Of a stretch of 32,000 nt of DNA, positions 6,535-31,624 are shown piece by piece. This stretch comes from Wigglesworthia glossinidia endosymbiont of Glossina morsitans morsitans (Yale colony) (lineage in GTDB: Bacteria; Pseudomonadota; Gammaproteobacteria; Enterobacterales; Enterobacteriaceae): NCBI RefSeq assembly GCF_000247565.1, contig NC_016893.1:330001-362000 (forward strand), written 5' to 3'. A program made the position numbers and the translations under genes. The notes under the pieces were generated by a model. That model ran no database searches, had not been told where the DNA came from, and saw only the letters and a list, made by a program, of their open reading frames with translations. Within the stretch, counting starts at the first letter, position 1. Each line of letters begins with the position of its first letter.

Positions 6535-7845
6535 ATGTATCAAGAATATCTCAATAGAAGAAAAAAATTATTTGCACAAATGGCTCCAGAAAGTGCTACT
6601 TTAATTTTTGCAGCTGCAGAGAATAACAAAAATTTTGATTATAATTTTCAGTATAGACAAGATAAAAATTTTTTTTATTTTACTGGATTTAATGAACCTC
6701 AAGCATTATTTATTTTGATAAAACGTCATAACAATAATCAATGTATAATATTTAACCAAAAAAAAAACACTAATAACAAACAATGGTTTGGGAGCAACTT
6801 AGGACAAAAATCTGCTTTAAAAAAATTATATGTTAATTATTCGTATACATGGAATGATATTGAAAATAGATTGTATTTAATTTTAAATTATTTACATGTT
6901 GTTTATTATGCAATAGGATTGAATGAAAAGTACGATAAAATATTTTTTTTAACTCTAGAAAAACTAAGATTAAAATCAAAAAAAAATAAAAAATTTTGTG
7001 CTCCAAAACGTATTTTAGATTGGAGACTGTTCGTATATAAAATGCGTTTAATTAAATCAAAACAAGAAATTTATTTTATTCAAAAAGCTTGTGATATCAG
7101 TATTCTCGCGCATATTAGGGCTATTAAATTTTGTCAACCAAAAAGATATGAATACGAATTAGTTGCAGAAATTCATCATGAATTTCTACGTAATGGTTGT
7201 CTAACTAATTCTTACAATACTATTGTAGGTAGCGGCGAGAATTCTTGCATTTTACACTATACAAAAAATAATAAAAAAATGAAAAATGGTGAATTAGTGT
7301 TGATTGATGCAGGCTGTGAATATTGTAATTATACCAGTGATATTACTAGAACCATTCCAGTGAATGGAATCTTTTTAAAAGAACAACGTATTATATATCA
7401 TATTGTACTAGATATGTTAAATCTTGCTTTAAAATTGTTTAAGCCAAACATAAAAATTAAAATAATTAATATTCAAGTAATTCAGTTACTATTATCAAAA
7501 CTTAAATCAATTGGGTTAATTAATGGCACCATAAATCAATTAATGCATACAAAAATATATAAAAAATTTTTTATGCATCGACTATGTCATTGGATTGGAC
7601 TGAGTGTACATGATTGCGAATATATGCCGTGTAATGATAATACAATTTTAAAACCTGGAATGACTCTAGCTGTAGAACCTGGAATTTATATTCCAAAAAA
7701 TAATAATATTCCATTTTTATATCGTGGAATAGGGATTCGTATTGAGGAAAATATTGTTATTACTTCTAAAGGAAACAAAATTTTTACTCAAAATTTAATT
7801 AAAACACCTAATGAAATTGAAAAACTAATGCGTAAACCTATATGA
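6535..7845 (+). CDS. pepP: Xaa-Pro aminopeptidase (aminopeptidase P, M24B family).
   Basis: The ORF is 436 aa. The M24 metal ligands are in context: LIDAGCEY..SDITRT (two Asp), HWIGLSVHD (His), LAVEPGIY (Glu) and GIRIEENI (Glu). It sits immediately upstream of ubiH, as in E. coli. Confidence 0.92.
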   Translation: MYQEYLNRRKKLFAQMAPESATLIFAAAENNKNFDYNFQYRQDKNFFYFTGFNEPQALFILIKRHNNNQCIIFNQKKNTNNKQWFGSNLGQKSALKKLYVNYSYTWNDIENRLYLILNYLHVVYYAIGLNEKYDKIFFLTLEKLRLKSKKNKKFCAPKRILDWRLFVYKMRLIKSKQEIYFIQKACDISILAHIRAIKFCQPKRYEYELVAEIHHEFLRNGCLTNSYNTIVGSGENSCILHYTKNNKKMKNGELVLIDAGCEYCNYTSDITRTIPVNGIFLKEQRIIYHIVLDMLNLALKLFKPNIKIKIINIQVIQLLLSKLKSIGLINGTINQLMHTKIYKKFFMHRLCHWIGLSVHDCEYMPCNDNTILKPGMTLAVEPGIYIPKNNNIPFLYRGIGIRIEENIVITSKGNKIFTQNLIKTPNEIEKLMRKPI

Positions 7846-9029: not shown

Positions 9030-9556
9030 ATTTGAATATGTATTAACTATAAAACTTAAGCTATTTTAATGATTTGAAAAATTTATTTTTTTATAATTTT
9101 ATATTGCATACAATAGAAATTGTACGATTTTACTTTTTTACTATTAAAAAAGTTATTATTTATTTTTATCACATTTTTTTATTTAATCGATTTAATAAAA
9201 TTTTGCTTTATTATTTTTTTTAAAAAATTAAAATTTATTTATTAAATAATACTTTTAATTAAATTAAATGTAGTTTATAAAAAAATAGAATTTTTATTTA
9301 ATTTATTTTCAATATTTTAGAAAAATTTTTTCAAAAAATTTAATAAAATTTTTTTGAATAAATATTACTAATATAATTAGTACATATTGTATATAAAATA
9401 TAATATACTTTAAAATTATATTTAAAATATAAAAAATGAAATTTTTAATAAAATCTTTAATTATGTGATACATACTAAATTAAAAACTTCAATTTATTAT
9501 TTTAATTTGCAGTTGCATTTAAAGTGCATTTCTAACTAATAAACATGAGAAAGTAA

Positions 9557-10204
9557 ATGAATTCATTGAAAGCACTGTATAAAGCTTTTTTAGAACAAGA
9601 TATTAATATTTTATCTCAATTAAATATAATATGGTTATTTTATTTAGTAATTTGTATCATTCTAATTTTGGAAAATGGTTTTCTTCCGGTATCTTTTTTG
9701 CCTGGAGATAGTTTGTTAATTTTATTAGGAATATTAATATCTAAAAATATATTAAATTTTTATTTTATTGTTTTTTTATTGACGATATCTGCTAGCATAG
9801 GAAGTTGGATAGGATATTTACAAGGAAAATGGTTAAAAAATACACCTATTATAAATTTATGGATATCTAAATTACCTAAAAAATATTTTGACCGTGCATA
9901 TCATTTATTTTGTTTGCATGGATTTTTTGCATTATTTATTGGAAGATTTATTGTTTTTGTAAGAACAATTTTACCAATTTTTTTTGGTTTATCCGGTTTC
10001 AAAAGTAGCAAATTTTATTTTTTCAACGTTATTAGCGCTTTTTTTTGGGTATCAATTTTAACTTTAATAGGATTTTTATTAGGTAAAACTTGGATATTTA
10101 ATAGATACGAAAATATATTTATAACAGTTTTATGTACAATTCCAACTATTATAATAATTTTCAGTATTATATATTTGTTGAAATTTTGGATAAAAAAAAA
10201 TTAG
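9557..10204 (+). CDS. DedA-family inner membrane protein (YghB/YqjA-like).
   Basis: The 215-aa polytopic membrane ORF carries the DedA signature ENGFLPVSFLPGDSLLILLG and later FIGRFIVFVRTILP. It is collinear with E. coli YghB/YqjA. A GAGAAAG Shine-Dalgarno-like sequence precedes the ATG. Confidence 0.85.
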   Translation: MNSLKALYKAFLEQDINILSQLNIIWLFYLVICIILILENGFLPVSFLPGDSLLILLGILISKNILNFYFIVFLLTISASIGSWIGYLQGKWLKNTPIINLWISKLPKKYFDRAYHLFCLHGFFALFIGRFIVFVRTILPIFFGLSGFKSSKFYFFNVISAFFWVSILTLIGFLLGKTWIFNRYENIFITVLCTIPTIIIIFSIIYLLKFWIKKN

Positions 10205-11988: not shown

Positions 11989-14900
11989 AAAATATAAAAG
12001 TTTATATTTAATTATTTTTTTTATTTTTTATGTTTTAAGTGCATATGGTGATATTGATTTTGAAGAAAGCCAAATTAAAAAAGAACTACAACAAATTCAA
12101 AGCAATAATCGTATCTCACATCAATTAGATATTATTGTATCTTTACAATCAGCTTTAGATTTTATTACAGAAAGTAAAGCATCAATCCAAAAAATAAAAG
12201 AATATCAAAAAATTATTGAAAATTTTCCAATACTTATTAAACAAATTCAAGAAGAAAAAAAATTAAAAAATACATATTATAATGATGTCGTTATTAAATT
12301 TTCAGCTAAAGAAGTAAATCAAGAACTATTAAAAGCTAATAATCGATTAATTATTTTAGTTAATCAATTAAAACAAGAACAAGAACAGGCTCGTGTAATT
12401 GCAGATTCTGTAATGATATTGCCACATCAACAAGCAGAAGCAAGAAAAGAACTAAATAATATTGATAATTATATACATGTTATTTCTAAACCAAATTCTT
12501 TAATAGAAAAAGCACAATTTACTAATTTACGTATGCAACGTATAGCAAAAAGATTAAAAATAGAAGAATTAGATTTAGCACAACTTAGCGTAAATTATCG
12601 TCAAGAATTATCAAAAATACGTATAGATCTATTAAAGTCAAAATATAATAAAATTGATCAAGAATTACAAATTTTAAAAAACAATTTATATAATTTACGT
12701 AAACAAGAATCGGAAAAAGCATTGCATGATGCAGAAAAATCTTCTAAAGAAATTGATGCTTTTCCACAAATTGTTATTATACAATTCAAAAAAAATCATG
12801 ATCTGTCTCTTGCATTAAATCAACAATCACAAGAAATGGATTCTATAGCGTTTAAACAACGACAATCAACTAAAGATATCTTACAAGTACGCCATGCACT
12901 TAGTACCTTAATTGAGCAATCGCAATGGTTAGATGAATCTCCAATTTTAGGTGAAACATTACGATCTCAAATGTCTAAATTACCAGAAGTTCCTAAATCT
13001 CAACAACTTAATACAAATATGGTGCAAATTCGTGTTCAACGTTTATATTTTGAAGATTTAATAAACAAATTATTGTCTGAAGAATCTAATAAAAAAAAAA
13101 TTAAATTTATTCTTACAAAAGATCAATTCAAAATTTTTGAAGAACAATTGTTAATACAACGTGATTTATTAGATTCATTATTAATAGGATGTGATACTCA
13201 AATACTAGAGTTAACAAAATTAAAAGCGCTTTATGGACAATTGGAAGAAGCAATTAAAGAAGTTAAAGAAGCTTCACACAAATATTTATTTTGGGTTGCA
13301 GATACTAATTCTTTAACACCTTCGTTTATTTTATCTGTTATTCAAGATTTAAAAAAAATGTTCAATAGATATATGTTATCTCAAATTTTTAATGCAATGA
13401 AAACAATATTAACTAGCCGCAATACACTATTATTATTATTTAGCGCTTTTTTATTTTGGGGTTTTATGTTTAGTTCCCGTAAACATTATTTATCTTTTTT
13501 AAATCGATCTAGCATTCAGGTAGGAAAAGTAAATCAAGATCGATTTTCTATTACATTGAAAAATGTTTTTTGGTCTATGTTAGTTGCTGCTCCTTTCCCT
13601 ATTTTGTGGATATCTTTAGGATATGGATTTAGTCATGCATGGGCATATCCGATATCAGTAGCTTTAGGAGAAGCTATGATTTCAACATCTTTTATACTAT
13701 GGGTATTGTTGTTATGTGCATCTTTTGCTTTACCAAAAGGATTGTTTGTAATACATTTTGGCTGGAAAGTAGAACAAATACGTTGTGCACTGCGTTATTA
13801 TACTTTGTCGATTACTACAATAATACCATTAATAACAATATTAATTACTATTAATAATTATAGTGATCGTGAATTTACCAGTAGTATTGGAAGATTGTGT
13901 TTTATTTTGATTTGTATCGGTTTATCTTTAGTGACTAATAGTTTCAAACGTGCAGGATTATTATTATATCTCGATAAAATTGGTTCAAATAATAATATTA
14001 TTAATCGTTCTTTTTGGAATTTTATGATTTGTGCTCCAATACTTGCAATTATTTCTGCATCTTTAGGATACTTTTCTACTGCTCAAGTACTACTAACACG
14101 TTTAGAAACATCATTAACGATTTGGTTATTTTTATTAATTATATATCATATTATTCGTAGATGGATGTTTATTCAAAGACGTAGGATTGCATTTGAAAGA
14201 GCCAAACAACGTCGTGCAGAAATGTTAGCACAGCGTGCACGTAATACTGACGAACAAATGTTGTCACCATCTCAATTAAATGAAGTTGCTGCTGAAGTAG
14301 ATAATAAAATTTTAGATTTAGATACTATTAGCGCAAAATCTTTGCAATTAGTACGTTCTATATTAACGCTTATGGCATTACTATCTGTTATTTTATTATG
14401 GTCTGAATTGCATTCAGCTTTTTCCTTTTTAGAAAATATCACTCTGTGGGATTCTGCATCGACTCTAAAAGGAATAGACAATTTGAAACCAATTACGTTA
14501 AATTCAATTTTTATTGTTATTTTAATATTAATTATTACCACGCAAATGGTACGTAATCTTCCAGCTTTATTAGAACTTGCTTTATTACAGCATTTAAATT
14601 TAACTCCAGGTACAGGATATGCAATTACTACGCTTACTAAATATGGATTAATGTTATTAGGAGGATTAATTGGGTTTTCTATAGTTGGTATGGAATGGTC
14701 TAAATTTCAATGGTTAGCAGCGGCATTAGGCGTAGGATTAGGCTTTGGATTACAAGAAATATTTGCTAACTTTGTATCTGGATTAATTATTTTATTTGAA
14801 AAACCTATCCGAATAGGCGACACTGTTACTATTCGAAGTTTAACAGGAAGTATTACAAAAATTAACACTCGCGCTACTACAATTACTGATTGGGATAGAA

Positions 14901-15296: not shown

Positions 15297-16270
15297 TTAT
15301 GCACAATCGATTGAAAATAATATAACATCTTGAATTTTCTTGGCATTTAATGCAATCATAATTAATCTGTCTATTCCAACAGCAACACCGGAACAAAAAG
15401 GTATCCCGGAATTTATAGCGTGTAATAATTTTATATCGATTTCTTTTTCAGACAATCCTTTTTTTTTGCGTTGAATATTATTTAAAATAAAACGTTTATG
15501 CTGTTCTTTTGCATTTATTAACTCACAACATCCATTTGCTAGCTCAATACCGTGATAGTATAACTCGAATCTTTCAGCAAATTTATTATTTTTTAAGCAT
15601 ACTGCTGACATACTACTTTGTAGTACAGGAAAATGATGTATAAAAATTGGATGTTCTTTTCCAAGATTTGGAGATATTTTATATTCGAATAAAATTTGCA
15701 ACATTTCATCTCTGTCATGATGATTGTTATTATTGAAAATTGTGATTTTTTCGACAATTTTTCGTATTTGCTTGATTTTTGATTTAAAAGGATCAATCCC
15801 AAAATATTTTAAAAATAATTGATCATACGATATAAAACAAGATTTTTTTAATCCAGGTATAACATAATGTAAAAAATTATCTACTTCTCGAATTAACTTA
15901 AACATATTATAATGAGGTCGATACCATTCGAGCATAGTAAATTCTGGATTATGATACCGACCAATTTCAGAATTTCTAAAACTTTTGCAAATTTGAAAAA
16001 TTCCTCCAAATCCAGATGCTAAGAGTCGTTTCATATGATGTTCGGGACTCGTGATTAAGTATAATATTTTCTTTTCATCATTATAATTTTTTAGATATGT
16101 TTGAAATGAAGATAAATGTACATCGTTAGATGTTCTATAGCTTAATACAGGAGTATCGACTTCGAGTAAATTTTTTTTAAAAAAAAATTTCTAATTTTTT
16201 TAATAATTTGATTCCTTTTTATTAATATTTTTTTAGAAATGTTTGGTTTCCAATTGTGCGTTTTATTCAT
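15297..16270 (-). pseudogene. epmA: EF-P--(R)-beta-lysine ligase EpmA (PoxA/GenX/YjeA), interrupted by a single-nucleotide frameshift in a homopolymer tract.
   Basis: The 245-aa ORF at 15297-16034 starts at MKRLL, which I recall as about residue 81 of E. coli EpmA. It contains the class II aaRS-like motifs FRNSEIGRYHNPEFTMLEWY and CSGVAVGIDRL. Hand translation of the minus strand from the ATG at 16270 gives MNKTHNWKPNISKKILIKRNQIIKKIRNFFLKK. A +1 shift then gives NLLEVDTPVLSYRTSNDVHLSSFQTYLKNYNDEKKILYLITSPEHHMKRLL, collinear with the EpmA N-terminus without gaps. The span is 974 nt, one nucleotide short of 325 codons. Confidence 0.85.
16171..16187. repeat. Back-to-back homopolymers: T8 at 16171-16178 and A9 at 16179-16187 on the + strand, which read as U9 then A8 in epmA sense. 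This is the site of the epmA frame change.
   Basis: Read directly from the sequence: ...gagtaaa tttttttt aaaaaaaaa tttctaat... Confidence 0.9.
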
Positions 16271-16374: not shown

Positions 16375-16896
16375 TTACTTTTCTTGAAAGTATATTATTT
16401 TTTTAATTGTTTCGATCCAATAGAATAATCTTGATTCAGTTAATTCTGGTTGTCTGTCTTCGTCTAATGCTAATCCGACGAAATATTTTTTGTTTATTAA
16501 TGCTTTAGAAGCTTCAAACTTATATCCTTTAGTTGAATGACTTCCGATCATTTTTGCTTGATTTTGTATTAAAATTTCATTTAAAATTCCCATTGCGTCA
16601 CAAAAATATTCTGAATAGTCTTCTTGATCTCCACAACCAAAAATTGCTACCATTTTATCCTTAAAGTTTATTTTTTTTAAAATAGGAAAAAAATCATCCC
16701 AGTCGCATTGGGGTTCTCCATAATACCAAGTAGGTATTCCAAATATTAATTTGTCATATTTTTCTATATCTTTTTGAGCAGTATCTGCAATATCAAAAAT
16801 GTCAGAATTACTTGGACTTAATGCTTCTTGTATTTTTTTGGCAATACTTGCTGTATTCCCCGTATCACTACCGAAAAAAATTCCTGTAGATTTCAT
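16375..16896 (-). CDS. fldA: Flavodoxin 1 (long-chain flavodoxin).
   Basis: The ORF is 173 aa. Motifs include [11 protein letters not shown] (the FMN phosphate loop), [35 protein letters not shown] and [13 protein letters not shown]. It is near-collinear with E. coli FldA. Confidence 0.95.
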
Positions 16897-19528: not shown

Positions 19529-19624
19529 CAAATTTAAATTATTTATTTTACTTACATATATACAAATTATGTATTCAAATCGATATTTTATTTTAAAATA
19601 CAACTAAATTTTTTTATTTTAATG

Positions 19625-19642
19625 ACGATAAATCATTATCGT
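19625..19642 (+). terminator. Small hairpin acgataa-atca-ttatcgt followed by a T-rich stretch (atttgtt), about 95 nt downstream of ybgI. It is a candidate intrinsic terminator.
   Basis: A 7-bp perfect inverted repeat with two G:C pairs and a 4-nt loop, read directly from the sequence. Confidence 0.25.
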
Positions 19643-19967
19643 ATTTGTTAAGTAAATATTATATAATTTTAAATAAAATATTATAAAAATCAAAAATATA
19701 TGAATAATAAAAAAAGTTTGTTCATTTTTTAATCTTATTCAGAATTAATCCGAAAATTATTTTTTTAATCAATTAAAAAATATTTCATTTTATAATTAAA
19801 AAAGTTTAGTATATCTACTAAATATATTTTAAAACATAAAACTTAATCAGATTAAAGTTATACAGCAATTAAAATTAATTCTATCAACATATTAATTTTA
19901 AAAAAAAATATAAGTAAAGTTTTTCATTTTAAGTTTTTTTTATTAATCAATATAAAATAACGGATCC

Positions 19968-19974
19968 GAGAGGA
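19968..19974 (+). promoter_or_regulatory. Shine-Dalgarno sequence GAGAGGA for sdhC.
   Basis: It lies 5 nt upstream of the GTG start at 19980. It is the only G/C-containing patch in a spacer that is otherwise almost pure A/T. Confidence 0.55.
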
Positions 19975-19979
19975 AAACC

Positions 19980-30871: not shown

Positions 30872-31624
30872 GTGAAAACATCTAATTATAGAAATAAAAA
30901 TGCTAAGCTAGCGATATATTTATCGATATTTTTACACGTAATATTTATTTTATGTTTATATTTAACAGTATCTTTTACAAAAAGAAATATTAAAAATTTT
31001 TACCAAATTAATACTTTACATAAAAAAATTATAGATTCAAAAGAAAAAAATTTTTTTCAAAAAAAAATTAAAATAAATAATCAAGAGCAACTTATAAAGT
31101 TTTATTATCAAACATTAAAATTACCTGAAAATAAAAAAAATATAATCGATAAAAATTTTTCAAATAAAATAGAAAATAAAAATCAAACACTAAAAGTACA
31201 TGATACACAAATTAATCAAAAAAAAAACATAAAAAATAAACTTAAAAATAATTTTCTGTCAAAAAAATCGACAAACATTATAGACAACACAATTGAAAAT
31301 TTAAACAATACAGTACATAATAATCATGTTATTTATAATCAAAATTATACATTATCTTCTGAAATAGAAACATATAAAGAAGCGATAAAACAATCTATTA
31401 AAAATAAACTATATGACTACAACACATTTATAGGAAAAGTATGCGAATTAAATTTAGAAATTTATTCAAGTGGATCAATTAAATCAATTCGTATGATTAG
31501 CGGAGATGAATCACTATGTTATGCTGCAATTACATCTGCAAAATTAGCACGAATTCCTCCGGCACCTAATTTAGAAATTTATAAAATAGCAAAAAAAATA
31601 ACTTTGCGATTTTCTCCTGAATAG
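30872..31624 (+). CDS. tolA: Tol-Pal system protein TolA, shortened form (GTG start).
   Basis: The ORF is 250 aa. The N-terminal anchor is AIYLSIFLHVIFIL, with the conserved LHV. The C-terminal domain III, YKEAIKQSIKNKLYDYNTFIGKVCELNLEI...GDESLCYAAITSAKLARIPPAP, parallels E. coli TolA. It lies between tolR and tolB. Confidence 0.8.
   Translation: MKTSNYRNKNAKLAIYLSIFLHVIFILCLYLTVSFTKRNIKNFYQINTLHKKIIDSKEKNFFQKKIKINNQEQLIKFYYQTLKLPENKKNIIDKNFSNKIENKNQTLKVHDTQINQKKNIKNKLKNNFLSKKSTNIIDNTIENLNNTVHNNHVIYNQNYTLSSEIETYKEAIKQSIKNKLYDYNTFIGKVCELNLEIYSSGSIKSIRMISGDESLCYAAITSAKLARIPPAPNLEIYKIAKKITLRFSPE

What the first reader, a model, noticed from the sequence alone, without database searches (positions are those of the whole stretch)
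16035..16270. epmA reading frame breaks exactly inside a T8/A9 homopolymer
The ORF track shows only the C-terminal 245 codons of EpmA. Translating the minus strand by hand from the ATG at 16270 recovers the missing N-terminus of roughly 80 residues in two frames. The first part reads MNKTHNWKPN...IRNFFLKK and the second reads NLLEVDTPVLS...SPEHHMKRLL. The two frames switch inside the run that reads U9-A8 in mRNA sense (16171-16187).

Adding one A or one T restores a gap-free alignment to my recollection of E. coli EpmA (IRRFFADRGVLEVETP) and a 325-codon gene. No other lesion is visible, and the catalytic motifs are intact.

In Buchnera and Blochmannia, frameshifts in long poly(A)/poly(T) tracts are reported to be partly rescued by transcriptional slippage (Tamas and colleagues). 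This locus fits that pattern. The alternatives are a very recent pseudogenisation of the EF-P beta-lysylation pathway, or a homopolymer sequencing or assembly error.
Basis: partly seen in the sequence, partly recalled or inferred. Interest (0 to 1): 0.7.

Follow-up and report, generated by a model that had tools for sequence, protein, structure and literature searches.

The report
Conserved homopolymer frameshift in symbiont epmA
The tsetse-fly symbiont Wigglesworthia carries a one-base deletion in a run of nine T's inside epmA (the enzyme that modifies translation factor EF-P), yet the broken gene is shared by three diverged symbiont lineages and still evolves like a working gene, so it is most likely read through by polymerase or ribosome slippage, as already described in ant and aphid symbionts.

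Summary
epmA (minus strand, 16270..15297) changes frame inside T9A8 (mRNA sense, 16187..16171). One extra T or A gives a 324-aa protein that matches EpmA end to end.

The window is Wigglesworthia glossinidia from Glossina morsitans (WGM). The break is not a sequencing error and not a fresh pseudogene:
- The same one-base-short T9 tract occurs in a close relative (L085, T9A8) and in the G. palpalis gambiensis symbiont (Wgp, T9-G-A7).
- These three assemblies come from different samples, and the two whose method is known used different chemistries.
- The G. pallidipes symbiont has T10 and is in frame.
- The G. brevipalpis symbiont (WGB) has lost the gene; only a 974-bp, 6% GC spacer remains.

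Between the two T9A8 carriers, epmA has 83 substitutions, no indels and no stops. Its dN/dS is 0.10, against 0.15 for 14 neighbouring genes and 0.9-1.5 for out-of-frame controls. Spacers predict about 14 indels in a neutral sequence of this length.

The frameshifted gene is therefore still under purifying selection, so full-length protein must be made. The likely routes are RNA polymerase slippage on the T9 run or −1 ribosomal frameshifting on U_UUU_UUU; a minority of T10 genome copies is also possible. I could not tell which.

This is a new member of the known class of conserved homopolymer frameshifts (Buchnera, Blochmannia).

The parts
15297..16270 (-). The whole epmA (poxA/genX/yjeA) gene, read in two frames. 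It is 974 nt, one base short of a 975-nt, 324-codon gene.
   Evidence: Searches give the sequence and translations. NCBIfam PRK09350 at 406 bits, full length after repair; 3a5z at E = 2.7e-101.
16172..16270 (-). The upstream (0-frame) coding part, codons 1-33: MNKTHNWKPNISKKILIKRNQIIKKIRNFF(F/L)KK. It encodes the N-terminal stretch up to the conserved R-FF / EV-TP block.
   Evidence: W7, P9, L, R, R-FF match conserved family columns. For codons 1-79, dN/dS between WGM and L085 is 0.18, p = 5e-4 against neutrality.
16179..16187 (-). The T9 run in mRNA sense (A9 on the + strand). This is where the one-base deletion lies and is the proposed slip site. In frame 0 it contains the heptamers U_UUU_UUU and U_UUU_UUA.
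   Evidence: the only 1-nt gap against the in-frame G. pallidipes lineage (T10) falls in this run. T9 is shared by WGM, L085 and Wgp.
16171..16178 (-). The A8 run in mRNA sense (T8 on the + strand). It is a second slippery stretch, with U_UUA_AAA and A_AAA_AAA in frame 0. It is not conserved: G-A7 in Wgp and AAACGAAA in the G. pallidipes lineage.
16191..16193 (-). TAG stop in the -1 frame just upstream of the tract. It sets the 5' limit of the stretch in which the frame change must occur.
   Evidence: (frame-2 translation ...*KFFFKKNLLEVDTP) and the sequence.
16142..16144 (-). TAA stop of the 0 frame, 9 codons after the tract. It sets the 3' limit of the shift stretch. Without a shift the product is a 42-aa peptide.
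   Evidence: ORF 16142..16270, 42 aa.
16035..16170 (-). -1-frame codons 34-79 (NLLEVDTPVLS...SPEHH). They lie between the tract and the first possible start codon (M80) and contain no ATG, GTG or TTG.
   Evidence: dN/dS is 0.12 for WGM-L085 (p = 0.002) and 0.085 for WGM-Wgp. This stretch is translated and under selection, which requires read-through from upstream.
15297..16034 (-). The 245-codon C-terminal ORF, which is the only part annotated (AFA41170.1, 'putative lysyl-tRNA synthetase').
   Evidence: dN/dS is 0.084 for WGM-L085.
16375..16896 (-). fldA (flavodoxin), 104 nt upstream on the same strand. No terminator-like site was detected between it and epmA, so the two may be co-transcribed. 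It served as the anchor for fetching orthologous loci.

Best explanation
epmA of Wigglesworthia glossinidia morsitans carries a real one-base deletion, T10 to T9, in the run that encodes Asn-Phe-Phe-Phe. The allele is at least as old as the split between WGM and the L085 lineage, and the G. palpalis symbiont carries the same T9. The gene is nonetheless still kept by purifying selection.

It follows that full-length EpmA must still be made. The most likely routes act at the tract during expression:
- RNA polymerase realigns on the nine-T run and adds one U (or drops two).
- Alternatively, ribosomes slip back one base on U_UUU_UUU or U_UUU_UUA. In WGM they could also slip on U_UUA_AAA or A_AAA_AAA.

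A slip within the T run gives ...IRNFFFKKNLLEVDTP..., the same Asn-Phe-Phe-Phe junction as the in-frame G. pallidipes protein; a slip in the A run gives Leu at residue 31. EpmA is an enzyme with a single substrate, EF-P Lys34, so a small corrected fraction could be enough.

Shown here: the frameshift, its conservation across lineages, and the selection on both halves of the gene. Inferred: that rescue happens, and by which molecular route.
For: 1. Identity. The repaired protein is a full-length EpmA.

2. The same lesion in three lineages.
- WGM has T9A8. It was Sanger-sequenced (PMC3280448).
- L085, from run SRR14633898 on a 417-kb contig, has T9A8.
- Wgp has T9-G-A7. It was sequenced on Illumina; only contigs with mean coverage above 1,400x were kept. 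The NCBI MAG and an independent Logan assembly are identical here.

3. Selection on the frameshifted gene, WGM versus L085.
- 83 of 974 nt differ, with 0 indels and 0 stops.
- Sd is 54.5 and Nd is 28.5, giving dN/dS 0.10 (p = 8e-21 against neutrality).
- This does not differ from 14 pooled neighbours at 0.15 (Fisher p = 0.63).
- Out-of-frame controls give 0.92 and 1.49.
- Codons 1-79, upstream of the annotated ORF, give 0.18 (p = 5e-4).

4. Neutral expectations.
- Spacers between the same two genomes carry 29 indel events in 2,018 nt.
- At that rate 974 nt should carry about 14 indels; P(0) = 8e-7.
- The chance of no stop codon after 83 random substitutions is 0.0004-0.008.

5. WGM versus Wgp gives dN/dS 0.19, against about 0.2 for neighbours.

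6. No faster protein change in frameshifted lineages than in the in-frame G. pallidipes lineage: 21 versus 17 and 19 versus 15 unique changes, p about 0.6. HMM scores are equal at 406, 394 and 398 against 392 bits.

7. A true pseudogene in the same locus looks different. Wgp dedA survives as fragments in three frames at 44-60% identity.

8. No ATG, GTG or TTG lies between the tract and M80 in WGM or L085. Codons 34-79 can only be translated by ribosomes arriving from upstream.

9. Literature.
- Runs of 9 A or T support transcriptional slippage in bacteria.
- In Buchnera and Blochmannia, 12-50% of transcripts from frameshifted genes are corrected (PMC5009743).
- Conserved homopolymer frameshifts without gene decay are described in Blochmannia (PMC3017870).
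- epmB (yjeK) is reported present in WGM (PMC3280448).
Against: - There are no transcript, protein or read-level data, so rescue is inferred from selection alone.
- From run statistics, Baranov et al. 2005 suggested that transcriptional slippage may not occur in Wigglesworthia (PMC1088944).
- U_UUU_UUU and U_UUU_UUA are weak -1 sites in E. coli (PMC5009743).
- There is no conserved downstream stimulatory structure. WGM gives z = -0.75 and L085 gives z = +0.47; only Wgp has a strong hairpin.
- The in-frame G. pallidipes lineage is nested among the frameshifted ones. Two events are needed either way, and the tract is a mutational hot spot.
- epmA and epmB were lost outright in WGB, so the pathway is not indispensable to the genus.
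- All four Wigglesworthia EpmAs deviate at 12-15 of 103 highly conserved family columns.
Confidence: 0.7

Rival explanations
1. Mixed genome copies. Wigglesworthia cells and populations carry both T9 and T10 copies because of replication slippage. Assemblies report the T9 majority, and the in-frame minority supplies EpmA and keeps the gene under selection. No RNA-level or ribosomal recoding is needed.
For: The tract flips between T9 and T10 across lineages, so it is mutable at the DNA level. Selection is clearly maintained. The WGM DNA came from about 1,000 pooled flies and the Wgp DNA from pooled bacteriomes.
Against: Three independent assemblies all settle on T9. A stable minority allele would have to persist over a divergence of dS about 0.2-0.4. 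No read-level data could be examined here. This reading does not exclude RNA-level slippage on the same tract.
Confidence: 0.12
2. Young pseudogene. The same T10-to-T9 deletion arose independently and very recently in WGM, in L085 and in Wgp. epmA is now dead in each, on its way to the complete erosion seen in WGB.
For: Homopolymers are indel hot spots. The pathway was lost in WGB. The in-frame G. pallidipes lineage is nested among the frameshifted ones. Each frameshifted clade shows one change at a 116/116-invariant column: Y212H in WGM and L085, G104S in Wgp.
Against: It needs three parallel, identical and recent events. Over that divergence dN/dS is 0.10, there are 0 indels against about 14 expected, and there are no stops (P <= 0.008). 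The relative-rate test shows no acceleration.
Confidence: 0.1
3. Sequencing or assembly artefact. The true tract is T10 in all lineages and T9 is a homopolymer under-call.
For: [quoted passage not shown] Homopolymers are a classic source of error.
Against: T9 was recovered by Sanger (WGM), by Illumina with contigs above 1,400x using two assemblers (Wgp) and in a third run (L085). A T10 was assembled without trouble in L084. In the window, 17 other A9-A10 runs sit in frame in intact genes.
Confidence: 0.03
4. Split or truncated protein. The downstream part is translated on its own, from M80 or from a non-canonical start just after the tract, and works without the N-terminal 33 residues.
For: Prodigal called a TTG start right after the tract in Wgp (P0002, 290 aa). 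GenBank annotates the 245-aa ORF in WGM.
Against: The TTG is TTA in WGM and L085, and no ATG, GTG or TTG precedes M80 there. Codons 1-33 stay open and conserved in all four lineages and carry family-conserved residues (W, P, R-FF). Codons 34-79 are under selection. The break falls between the conserved R-FF and EV-TP blocks. From general knowledge of class II synthetases, not tested here, this is the motif 1 region.
Confidence: 0.03

Closest known systems
Conserved frameshifts in poly(A)/poly(T) tracts of Blochmannia and Buchnera genes, corrected by transcriptional slippage (Tamas et al. 2008 PNAS; Wernegreen et al. 2010 MBE; Williams & Wernegreen 2010, PMC3017870)
   Same: There is a single indel inside an A/T homopolymer of at least 9 nt in an AT-rich obligate insect symbiont. 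The gene is otherwise intact. The frameshift is shared by diverged lineages. There is no rate acceleration and dN/dS is well below 1. The phylogenetic pattern needs parallel frameshifts or a reversion, as for erfK and ytfM in Blochmannia.
   Different: The genus (Wigglesworthia) and the gene (epmA) are different. The run is sense-strand poly(U) made of Phe codons, not poly(A). Corrected transcripts have not been measured. Baranov et al. 2005 had argued that slippage might be absent in this genus. Rio et al. 2012 raised the idea for other WGM pseudogenes but counted poxA as an intact WGM-specific gene.
Programmed -1 ribosomal frameshifting on X_XXY_YYZ heptamers (E. coli dnaX A_AAA_AAG; IS3-family transposases; HIV-1 U_UUU_UUA)
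   Same: The tract offers up to four overlapping in-frame heptamers (U_UUU_UUU, U_UUU_UUA, U_UUA_AAA, A_AAA_AAA). A -1 shift is exactly what is needed. The product would be the full-length protein.
   Different: There is no conserved 3' stem-loop or pseudoknot and no upstream Shine-Dalgarno-like stimulator in WGM or L085. The non-shifted product is a useless 42-aa peptide, not a second functional protein. An in-frame relative exists, so the shift is corrective rather than designed.
Transcriptional realignment used for gene expression (Thermus dnaX; IS element transposases; Shigella mxiE/spa13), as reviewed in PMC5009743 and PMC1088944
   Same: The run of 9 identical A/T bases is the length at which bacterial RNA polymerases are reported to slip.
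   Different: In those cases the slippage produces two useful products or is regulatory. Here it would only repair a lesion.
E. coli / Salmonella EpmA (PoxA, GenX, YjeA), PDB 3A5Y/3A5Z/3G1Z
   Same: It has the same length and domain (class II LysRS-like catalytic core without an anticodon-binding domain). Identity is 47-48%. It keeps the E. coli neighbourhood (psd-mscM-epmA).
   Different: The gene is frameshifted. It has 12-15 substitutions at columns conserved in at least 97% of 116 homologs, for example T49N, Y78H, E200S and F248C. Most of these, including the four named, are shared by all four Wigglesworthia lineages.

Membership tests
EpmA (EF-P--(R)-beta-lysine ligase; PoxA/GenX) | Full-length match to the curated equivalog model, above its cut-off | tested here: met
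   NF006828 scores 406 bits (cut-off 264) over residues 1-324 of the repaired protein. TIGR00462 scores 363 bits (cut-off 286.9). LysRS models score far below their own cut-offs.
EpmA (EF-P--(R)-beta-lysine ligase; PoxA/GenX) | Class II LysRS-like catalytic core alone, about 325 aa, with no anticodon-binding domain | tested here: met
   It aligns end to end with 3a5z/3a5y/3g1z (E about 1e-101). It aligns only to the C-terminal catalytic halves of LysRS chains.
EpmA (EF-P--(R)-beta-lysine ligase; PoxA/GenX) | Conservation of family-invariant residues | tested here: inconclusive
   89 of 103 columns conserved in at least 97% of homologs are kept. 14 deviate, and most of these deviations are shared by all four Wigglesworthia lineages, including the in-frame one.
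EpmA (EF-P--(R)-beta-lysine ligase; PoxA/GenX) | Partners present: epmB (yjeK) and efp with Lys34 | not testable with these tools
   Neither gene is in the window. Rio et al. 2012 list yjeK and poxA as WGM genes absent from WGB and cite efp as universal. Their sequences were not examined.
Homopolymer frameshift maintained by selection and rescued by slippage (Buchnera/Blochmannia class) | A single indel inside an A/T run of at least 9 nt, with the gene otherwise intact | tested here: met
   T9 versus T10 is the only gap. The rest of the gene has no stop or indel in WGM, L085 or Wgp.
Homopolymer frameshift maintained by selection and rescued by slippage (Buchnera/Blochmannia class) | The frameshift is conserved between diverged lineages | tested here: met
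   WGM, L085 and Wgp all have T9. EpmA identity to WGM is 91% for L085 and 77% for Wgp.
Homopolymer frameshift maintained by selection and rescued by slippage (Buchnera/Blochmannia class) | Purifying selection persists on the frameshifted gene | tested here: met
   dN/dS is 0.10 for WGM-L085 and 0.19 for WGM-Wgp, equal to neighbours. Controls are about 1. The relative-rate test shows no acceleration.
Homopolymer frameshift maintained by selection and rescued by slippage (Buchnera/Blochmannia class) | A mixed mRNA pool containing frame-corrected transcripts | not testable with these tools
   No RNA or read-level data are available. The library type of SRR5590067, the source of the T10 contig, is unknown.
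Programmed -1 ribosomal frameshift site | An in-frame slippery heptamer X_XXY_YYZ | tested here: met
   U_UUU_UUU is present in all three frameshifted lineages. WGM and L085 also have U_UUU_UUA, U_UUA_AAA and A_AAA_AAA.
Programmed -1 ribosomal frameshift site | A conserved stimulatory RNA structure 5-9 nt downstream, or an upstream SD-like element | tested here: not met
   WGM folds at -8.5 kcal/mol (z = -0.75) and L085 at -6.1 (z = +0.47). Only Wgp has a strong hairpin, at -19.6 (z = -4.4). There is no SD-like sequence within about 15 nt upstream. No Rfam frameshift element matched.
Decaying pseudogene | Multiple lesions, dN/dS near 1, and indels at the spacer rate | tested here: not met
   There are 0 extra indels against about 14 expected, no stops, and dN/dS is 0.10. 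Compare Wgp dedA, which survives in three frames, and WGB epmA, which is fully eroded.

The most novel reading that the evidence does not exclude
The T9 state is not just a tolerated lesion but a selected low-dosage setting for EpmA. It would then be a stable recoding site, decoded by -1 ribosomal frameshifting on U_UUU_UUU. Support has evolved lineage by lineage: an extended slippery U9A8 cassette in the morsitans-type symbionts, and a strong 3' hairpin built partly from synonymous changes in the G. palpalis symbiont, where the A run is interrupted. This would be a chromosomal housekeeping gene in a bacterium whose expression depends on programmed frameshifting. It would also tie the level of EF-P modification to translational fidelity.
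Probability: 0.1. Interest if true: 0.7.

Novelty: new member of a known kind. Interest (0 to 1): 0.45.

Why it matters
- **Annotation.** WGM poxA/epmA has been annotated as a 245-aa 'putative lysyl-tRNA synthetase', and the Wgp gene as a 290-aa protein. WGM poxA was discussed as an intact WGM-specific gene. In fact it is a 324-codon gene interrupted by a conserved frameshift.
- **Reach of the phenomenon.** The result extends 'selection maintains frameshifts in homopolymers' from Blochmannia and Buchnera to Wigglesworthia. An earlier genome-statistics study had suggested that transcriptional slippage might not operate in this genus.
- **A test system.** The locus offers a natural comparison for how much EF-P beta-lysylation a reduced genome needs. 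The gene is in frame in the G. pallidipes symbiont, frameshifted in the G. morsitans and G. palpalis symbionts, and lost in the G. brevipalpis symbiont.
- **A practical rule.** A single homopolymer indel in an endosymbiont gene should not be scored as gene loss in metabolic reconstructions of tsetse symbionts.

Tried and rejected
- **Genome-collection scan.** The scan with the repaired protein was swamped by the universal EFTMLEWY pattern. It returned only distant Enterobacterales at 48% identity or less.
- **Exact look-ups.** WGM FldA and the 245-aa ORF were not on record.
- **Third homology search.** A search with the N-terminal 162 aa returned no further Wigglesworthia fragments.
- **Route that worked.** FldA homologs and cluster members led to loci L081-L085.
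- **EF-P and EpmB.** No tool route reached their sequences. I rely on Rio et al. 2012 for their presence.
- **Supplements.** The supplementary tables of Rio 2012 are not held.
- **Run accessions.** Literature searches for SRR5590067 and SRR14633898 found nothing. The host of L085 and the library type of L084 therefore remain unknown.
- **Biopython YN00.** It failed, so I used NG86 and LWL85 instead.
- **WGB spacer.** tblastn of EpmA against it gave only one marginal, roughly colinear hit (E = 0.023, 29% identity). I treat this as no detectable relic.
- **Promoter/terminator and Rfam scans around the gene.** These were uninformative.
- **Split gene with internal start.** Considered and rejected. 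See the rival explanations.
- **FRNSE in place of FRNEE.** I considered whether this marks a catalytic loss. That column is variable in the family (Buchnera has RNKE), so it does not.
Full report
**1. What is there**

The window has 25.9% G+C. The 245-aa ORF at 15297-16034 is identical to AFA41170.1 of Wigglesworthia glossinidia, the endosymbiont of Glossina morsitans morsitans (WGM; 719,535-bp chromosome).

Reading the minus strand from the ATG at 16270 gives the following.
- The 0 frame reads MNKTHNWKPNISKKILIKRNQIIKKIRNFFLKK, then nine out-of-frame codons and a TAA at 16144-16142.
- The -1 frame is open from just after a TAG at 16193-16191. It reads (K)FFFKKNLLEVDTPVLS... through to the natural stop at 15297.
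- The two frames overlap only between 16190 and 16145. This stretch holds the run T9A8 (mRNA sense, 16187-16171).
- The gene is 974 nt. One extra T or A makes it 975 nt and 324 codons.

The repaired protein is a full-length EpmA.
- It matches the NCBIfam EpmA equivalog from end to end at 406 bits, against a cut-off of 264.
- It matches E. coli GenX/PoxA structures at E about 1e-101, with no gap at the junction.

**2. Related lineages**

Four other Wigglesworthia loci were recovered through the neighbouring flavodoxin gene and through cluster members.

| Lineage | Source | Tract | State of epmA |
|---|---|---|---|
| WGM (window) | G. m. morsitans; Sanger shotgun of MDA-amplified DNA | T9A8 | frameshifted |
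| L085 | Logan assembly of SRR14633898, 417-kb contig, host unknown; EpmA 91% identical to WGM | T9A8 | frameshifted, same 0-frame stop as WGM |
| Wgpal (L084 + P0361) | G. pallidipes (see below) | T10-AAACGAAAT | in frame, full length |
| Wgp (L081; L082 identical) | G. palpalis gambiensis draft genome JAVBJL01; Illumina, only contigs above 1,400x kept | T9-G-A7 | frameshifted; 0 frame stops one codon after the tract |
| WGB (L083) | G. brevipalpis, BA000021 | none | gene gone |

- **Wgpal.** L084 is a 1,174-bp Logan contig from SRR5590067. Its FldA matches, over the first 167 residues, a chimeric 'G. pallidipes' protein model (UniRef A0A1A9Z170 = P0361). That model also supplies EpmA residues 100-325. 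The junction reads NFFFKRNLVEVDTP.
- **WGB.** The fldA-mscM interval is a 974-bp spacer of 6% G+C with no detectable EpmA similarity. Rio et al. 2012 likewise list poxA and yjeK as present in WGM and absent in WGB.
- **Position of the gap.** The nucleotide alignment places the only 1-nt gap in the T run: T9 in WGM and Wgp against T10 in Wgpal.
- **Tree.** Pairwise identities give (WGB,(Wgp,(Wgpal,(L085,WGM)))).

**3. Artefact?**

This is unlikely. T9 was obtained by Sanger sequencing (WGM), by deep Illumina sequencing with two assemblers (Wgp) and in a third run (L085). A T10 was assembled normally in L084. The window also contains 17 other runs of 9-10 A in frame within intact genes.

**4. 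Pseudogene or living gene?**

WGM and L085 share the identical T9A8 lesion, so the path between them is the decisive comparison.

Results for epmA:
- 83 of 974 nt differ, with no indel and no stop codon in the two-frame reading.
- Sd is 54.5 and Nd is 28.5, so dN/dS is 0.10. The binomial p against neutrality is 8e-21.
- This cannot be distinguished from the 14 neighbouring genes pooled (0.15; Fisher p = 0.63).
- The two wrong reading frames of the same alignment give 0.92 and 1.49.
- Codons 1-79 lie upstream of the only annotated ORF. They give 0.18 (p = 5e-4).
- Codons 34-79 alone give 0.12 (p = 0.002).

Neutral expectations:
- Intergenic spacers between the same two genomes differ at 12.8% of sites and carry 29 indel events in 2,018 aligned nt.
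- At that rate a neutral 974-nt sequence should carry about 14 indels. P(0) is 8e-7.
- Eighty-three random substitutions would leave the frame free of stops in only 0.04-0.8% of simulations.

Other comparisons:
- Across the deeper WGM-Wgp comparison, dN/dS is 0.19, against about 0.2 for neighbours.
- Frameshifted lineages have not changed faster at the protein level than the in-frame G. pallidipes lineage. Unique changes are 21:17 and 19:15, p about 0.6.
- All four proteins score alike against the family model at 392-406 bits.
- In Wgp, the dedA-like gene in the same locus is a true pseudogene. It survives as three fragments in three frames at 44-60% identity. In WGB, epmA has eroded to spacer composition.

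The frameshifted epmA behaves like a gene whose whole protein sequence is still being selected.

**5. How it most likely works**

Selection on codons 34-79 needs ribosomes to reach them in the -1 frame. In WGM and L085 there is no ATG, GTG or TTG between the tract and M80. Those ribosomes must therefore come from the upstream ORF. Three routes are possible.

- **(a) Transcriptional realignment.** Nine identical A/T bases is the run length at which bacterial RNA polymerases are reported to slip. In Buchnera and Blochmannia, 12-50% of transcripts from frameshifted genes are corrected (PMC5009743; PMC3017870).
- **(b) -1 ribosomal frameshifting.** In frame 0 the tract reads AAU UUU UUU UUA AAA AAA AUU. 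This gives U_UUU_UUU and U_UUU_UUA, and in WGM and L085 also U_UUA_AAA and A_AAA_AAA.
- **(c) A minority of T10 genome copies.**

Routes (a) and (b), acting in the T run, both yield ...NFFFKKNLLEVDTP..., the same Asn-Phe-Phe-Phe junction as the in-frame G. pallidipes protein. T9 is the element conserved in all three frameshifted lineages. The A run is not conserved.

Points against a designed ribosomal signal:
- WGM and L085 have no significant downstream structure (z = -0.75 and +0.47).
- These heptamers are weak in E. coli.

Point against slippage:
- From run statistics, Baranov et al. 2005 suggested that slippage may not occur in Wigglesworthia.

I cannot separate the three routes. I favour RNA-level or translational rescue (about 0.7) over mixed genome copies (about 0.12).

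EpmA is a catalyst with one substrate, so a small corrected fraction could be enough. This last point is inference.

**6. History of the lesion**

Two events are needed under either scenario:
- an old T10-to-T9 deletion followed by a reversion in the G. pallidipes lineage; or
- parallel deletions in Wgp and in the WGM/L085 ancestor.

In both cases the lesion predates the WGM-L085 split. Three independent recent deletions would be needed to save the young-pseudogene reading. The same ambiguity between parallel frameshift and reversion was reported for erfK and ytfM in Blochmannia.

**7. Comparison with what is known**

This is the class described by Tamas et al. 2008 and Wernegreen et al. 2010, as cited. 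It consists of single indels in long A/T runs of AT-rich insect symbionts that are conserved between lineages without gene decay.

What was raised before and what is added here:
- Rio et al. 2012 raised the possibility for WGM pseudogenes in general. However, they applied a 50% truncation criterion, so poxA escaped notice and was discussed as an intact WGM-specific gene.
- New here are the gene, the genus-level comparative test, and the poly(U) rather than poly(A) sense run.
- Also new is the graded series across tsetse symbionts: in frame, frameshifted but selected, and lost.

I rate it a new member of a known kind and of moderate interest.

**8. Limits**

- There are no RNA, protein or read-level data.
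- efp and epmB were not inspected.
- The host of L085 and the library type of L084 are unknown.
- The dN/dS values are pairwise NG86 estimates.
- All Wigglesworthia EpmAs carry 12-15 substitutions at otherwise conserved columns. The enzyme's activity therefore cannot be taken for granted, even in the in-frame lineage.

Noticed in passing
L083 10514-11487 (W. glossinidia brevipalpis, BA000021.3): The fldA-mscM interval is a 974-bp spacer of 6% G+C. It is almost exactly the length of epmA and by far the longest spacer in the locus, but it has no detectable EpmA similarity. The gene seems to have eroded in place without being deleted.
   Followed up: yes
L081 10000-10070 (Wgp, immediately 3' of the T9-G-A7 tract): A strong hairpin of about 19 bp (-19.6 kcal/mol, z = -4.4; 4th most stable of 2,081 windows in the locus). 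It is absent from WGM, L085 and L084. Part of the stem is created by synonymous changes (ACU>ACA, CCU>CCA, GUA>GUG). It could be a lineage-specific stimulator of -1 frameshifting where the A run is interrupted, or it could be chance.
   Followed up: partly
L081 15906-17140 (Wgp): The dedA-like (VTT domain) gene is intact in WGM (window 9557-10204), in L085 and in WGB. In Wgp it is a decayed pseudogene, with fragments in three frames at 44-60% identity. It is a useful in-locus example of real decay.
   Followed up: partly
P0361 = UniRef100_A0A1A9Z170 ('Glossina pallidipes'): A host gene model of 394 aa is a chimera of Wigglesworthia FldA (residues 1-167) spliced to EpmA residues 100-325. Symbiont DNA in the G. 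pallidipes assembly has been annotated as a fly protein.
   Followed up: partly
window, whole (for example 6758-6767, 13091-13100, 31218-31227): Eighteen runs of at least 9 A/T lie in coding sequence (0.63 per kb, against 0.91 per kb in spacers). Seventeen are sense-strand poly(A) in frame in intact genes. The epmA T9 is the only sense-strand poly(U) run of at least 9.
   Followed up: partly
repaired EpmA residues 49, 78, 200, 219, 248 and others (window 15297-16270): All four Wigglesworthia EpmAs share substitutions at columns conserved in at least 97% of 116 homologs (T49N, Y78H, E200S, A219S, F248C and others; 12-15 of 103 columns). Buchnera deviates at about 2. This points to a burst of change in the genus ancestor followed by conservation.
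   Followed up: partly
window 9030-9556 and 19529-19979: Two long spacers (527 and 451 bp, 11-14% G+C) lie between ubiH and dedA and between ybgI and sdhC. The corresponding WGB spacers are 138 and 119 bp. They may be eroded genes.
   Followed up: no
window 15297-16034; L081 10001-10873: Public annotations split or truncate the gene. AFA41170.1 is 245 aa starting at M80. MDQ1237505.1 is 290 aa starting at a TTG just after the tract. Both are named 'putative lysyl-tRNA synthetase' rather than EpmA.
   Followed up: yes
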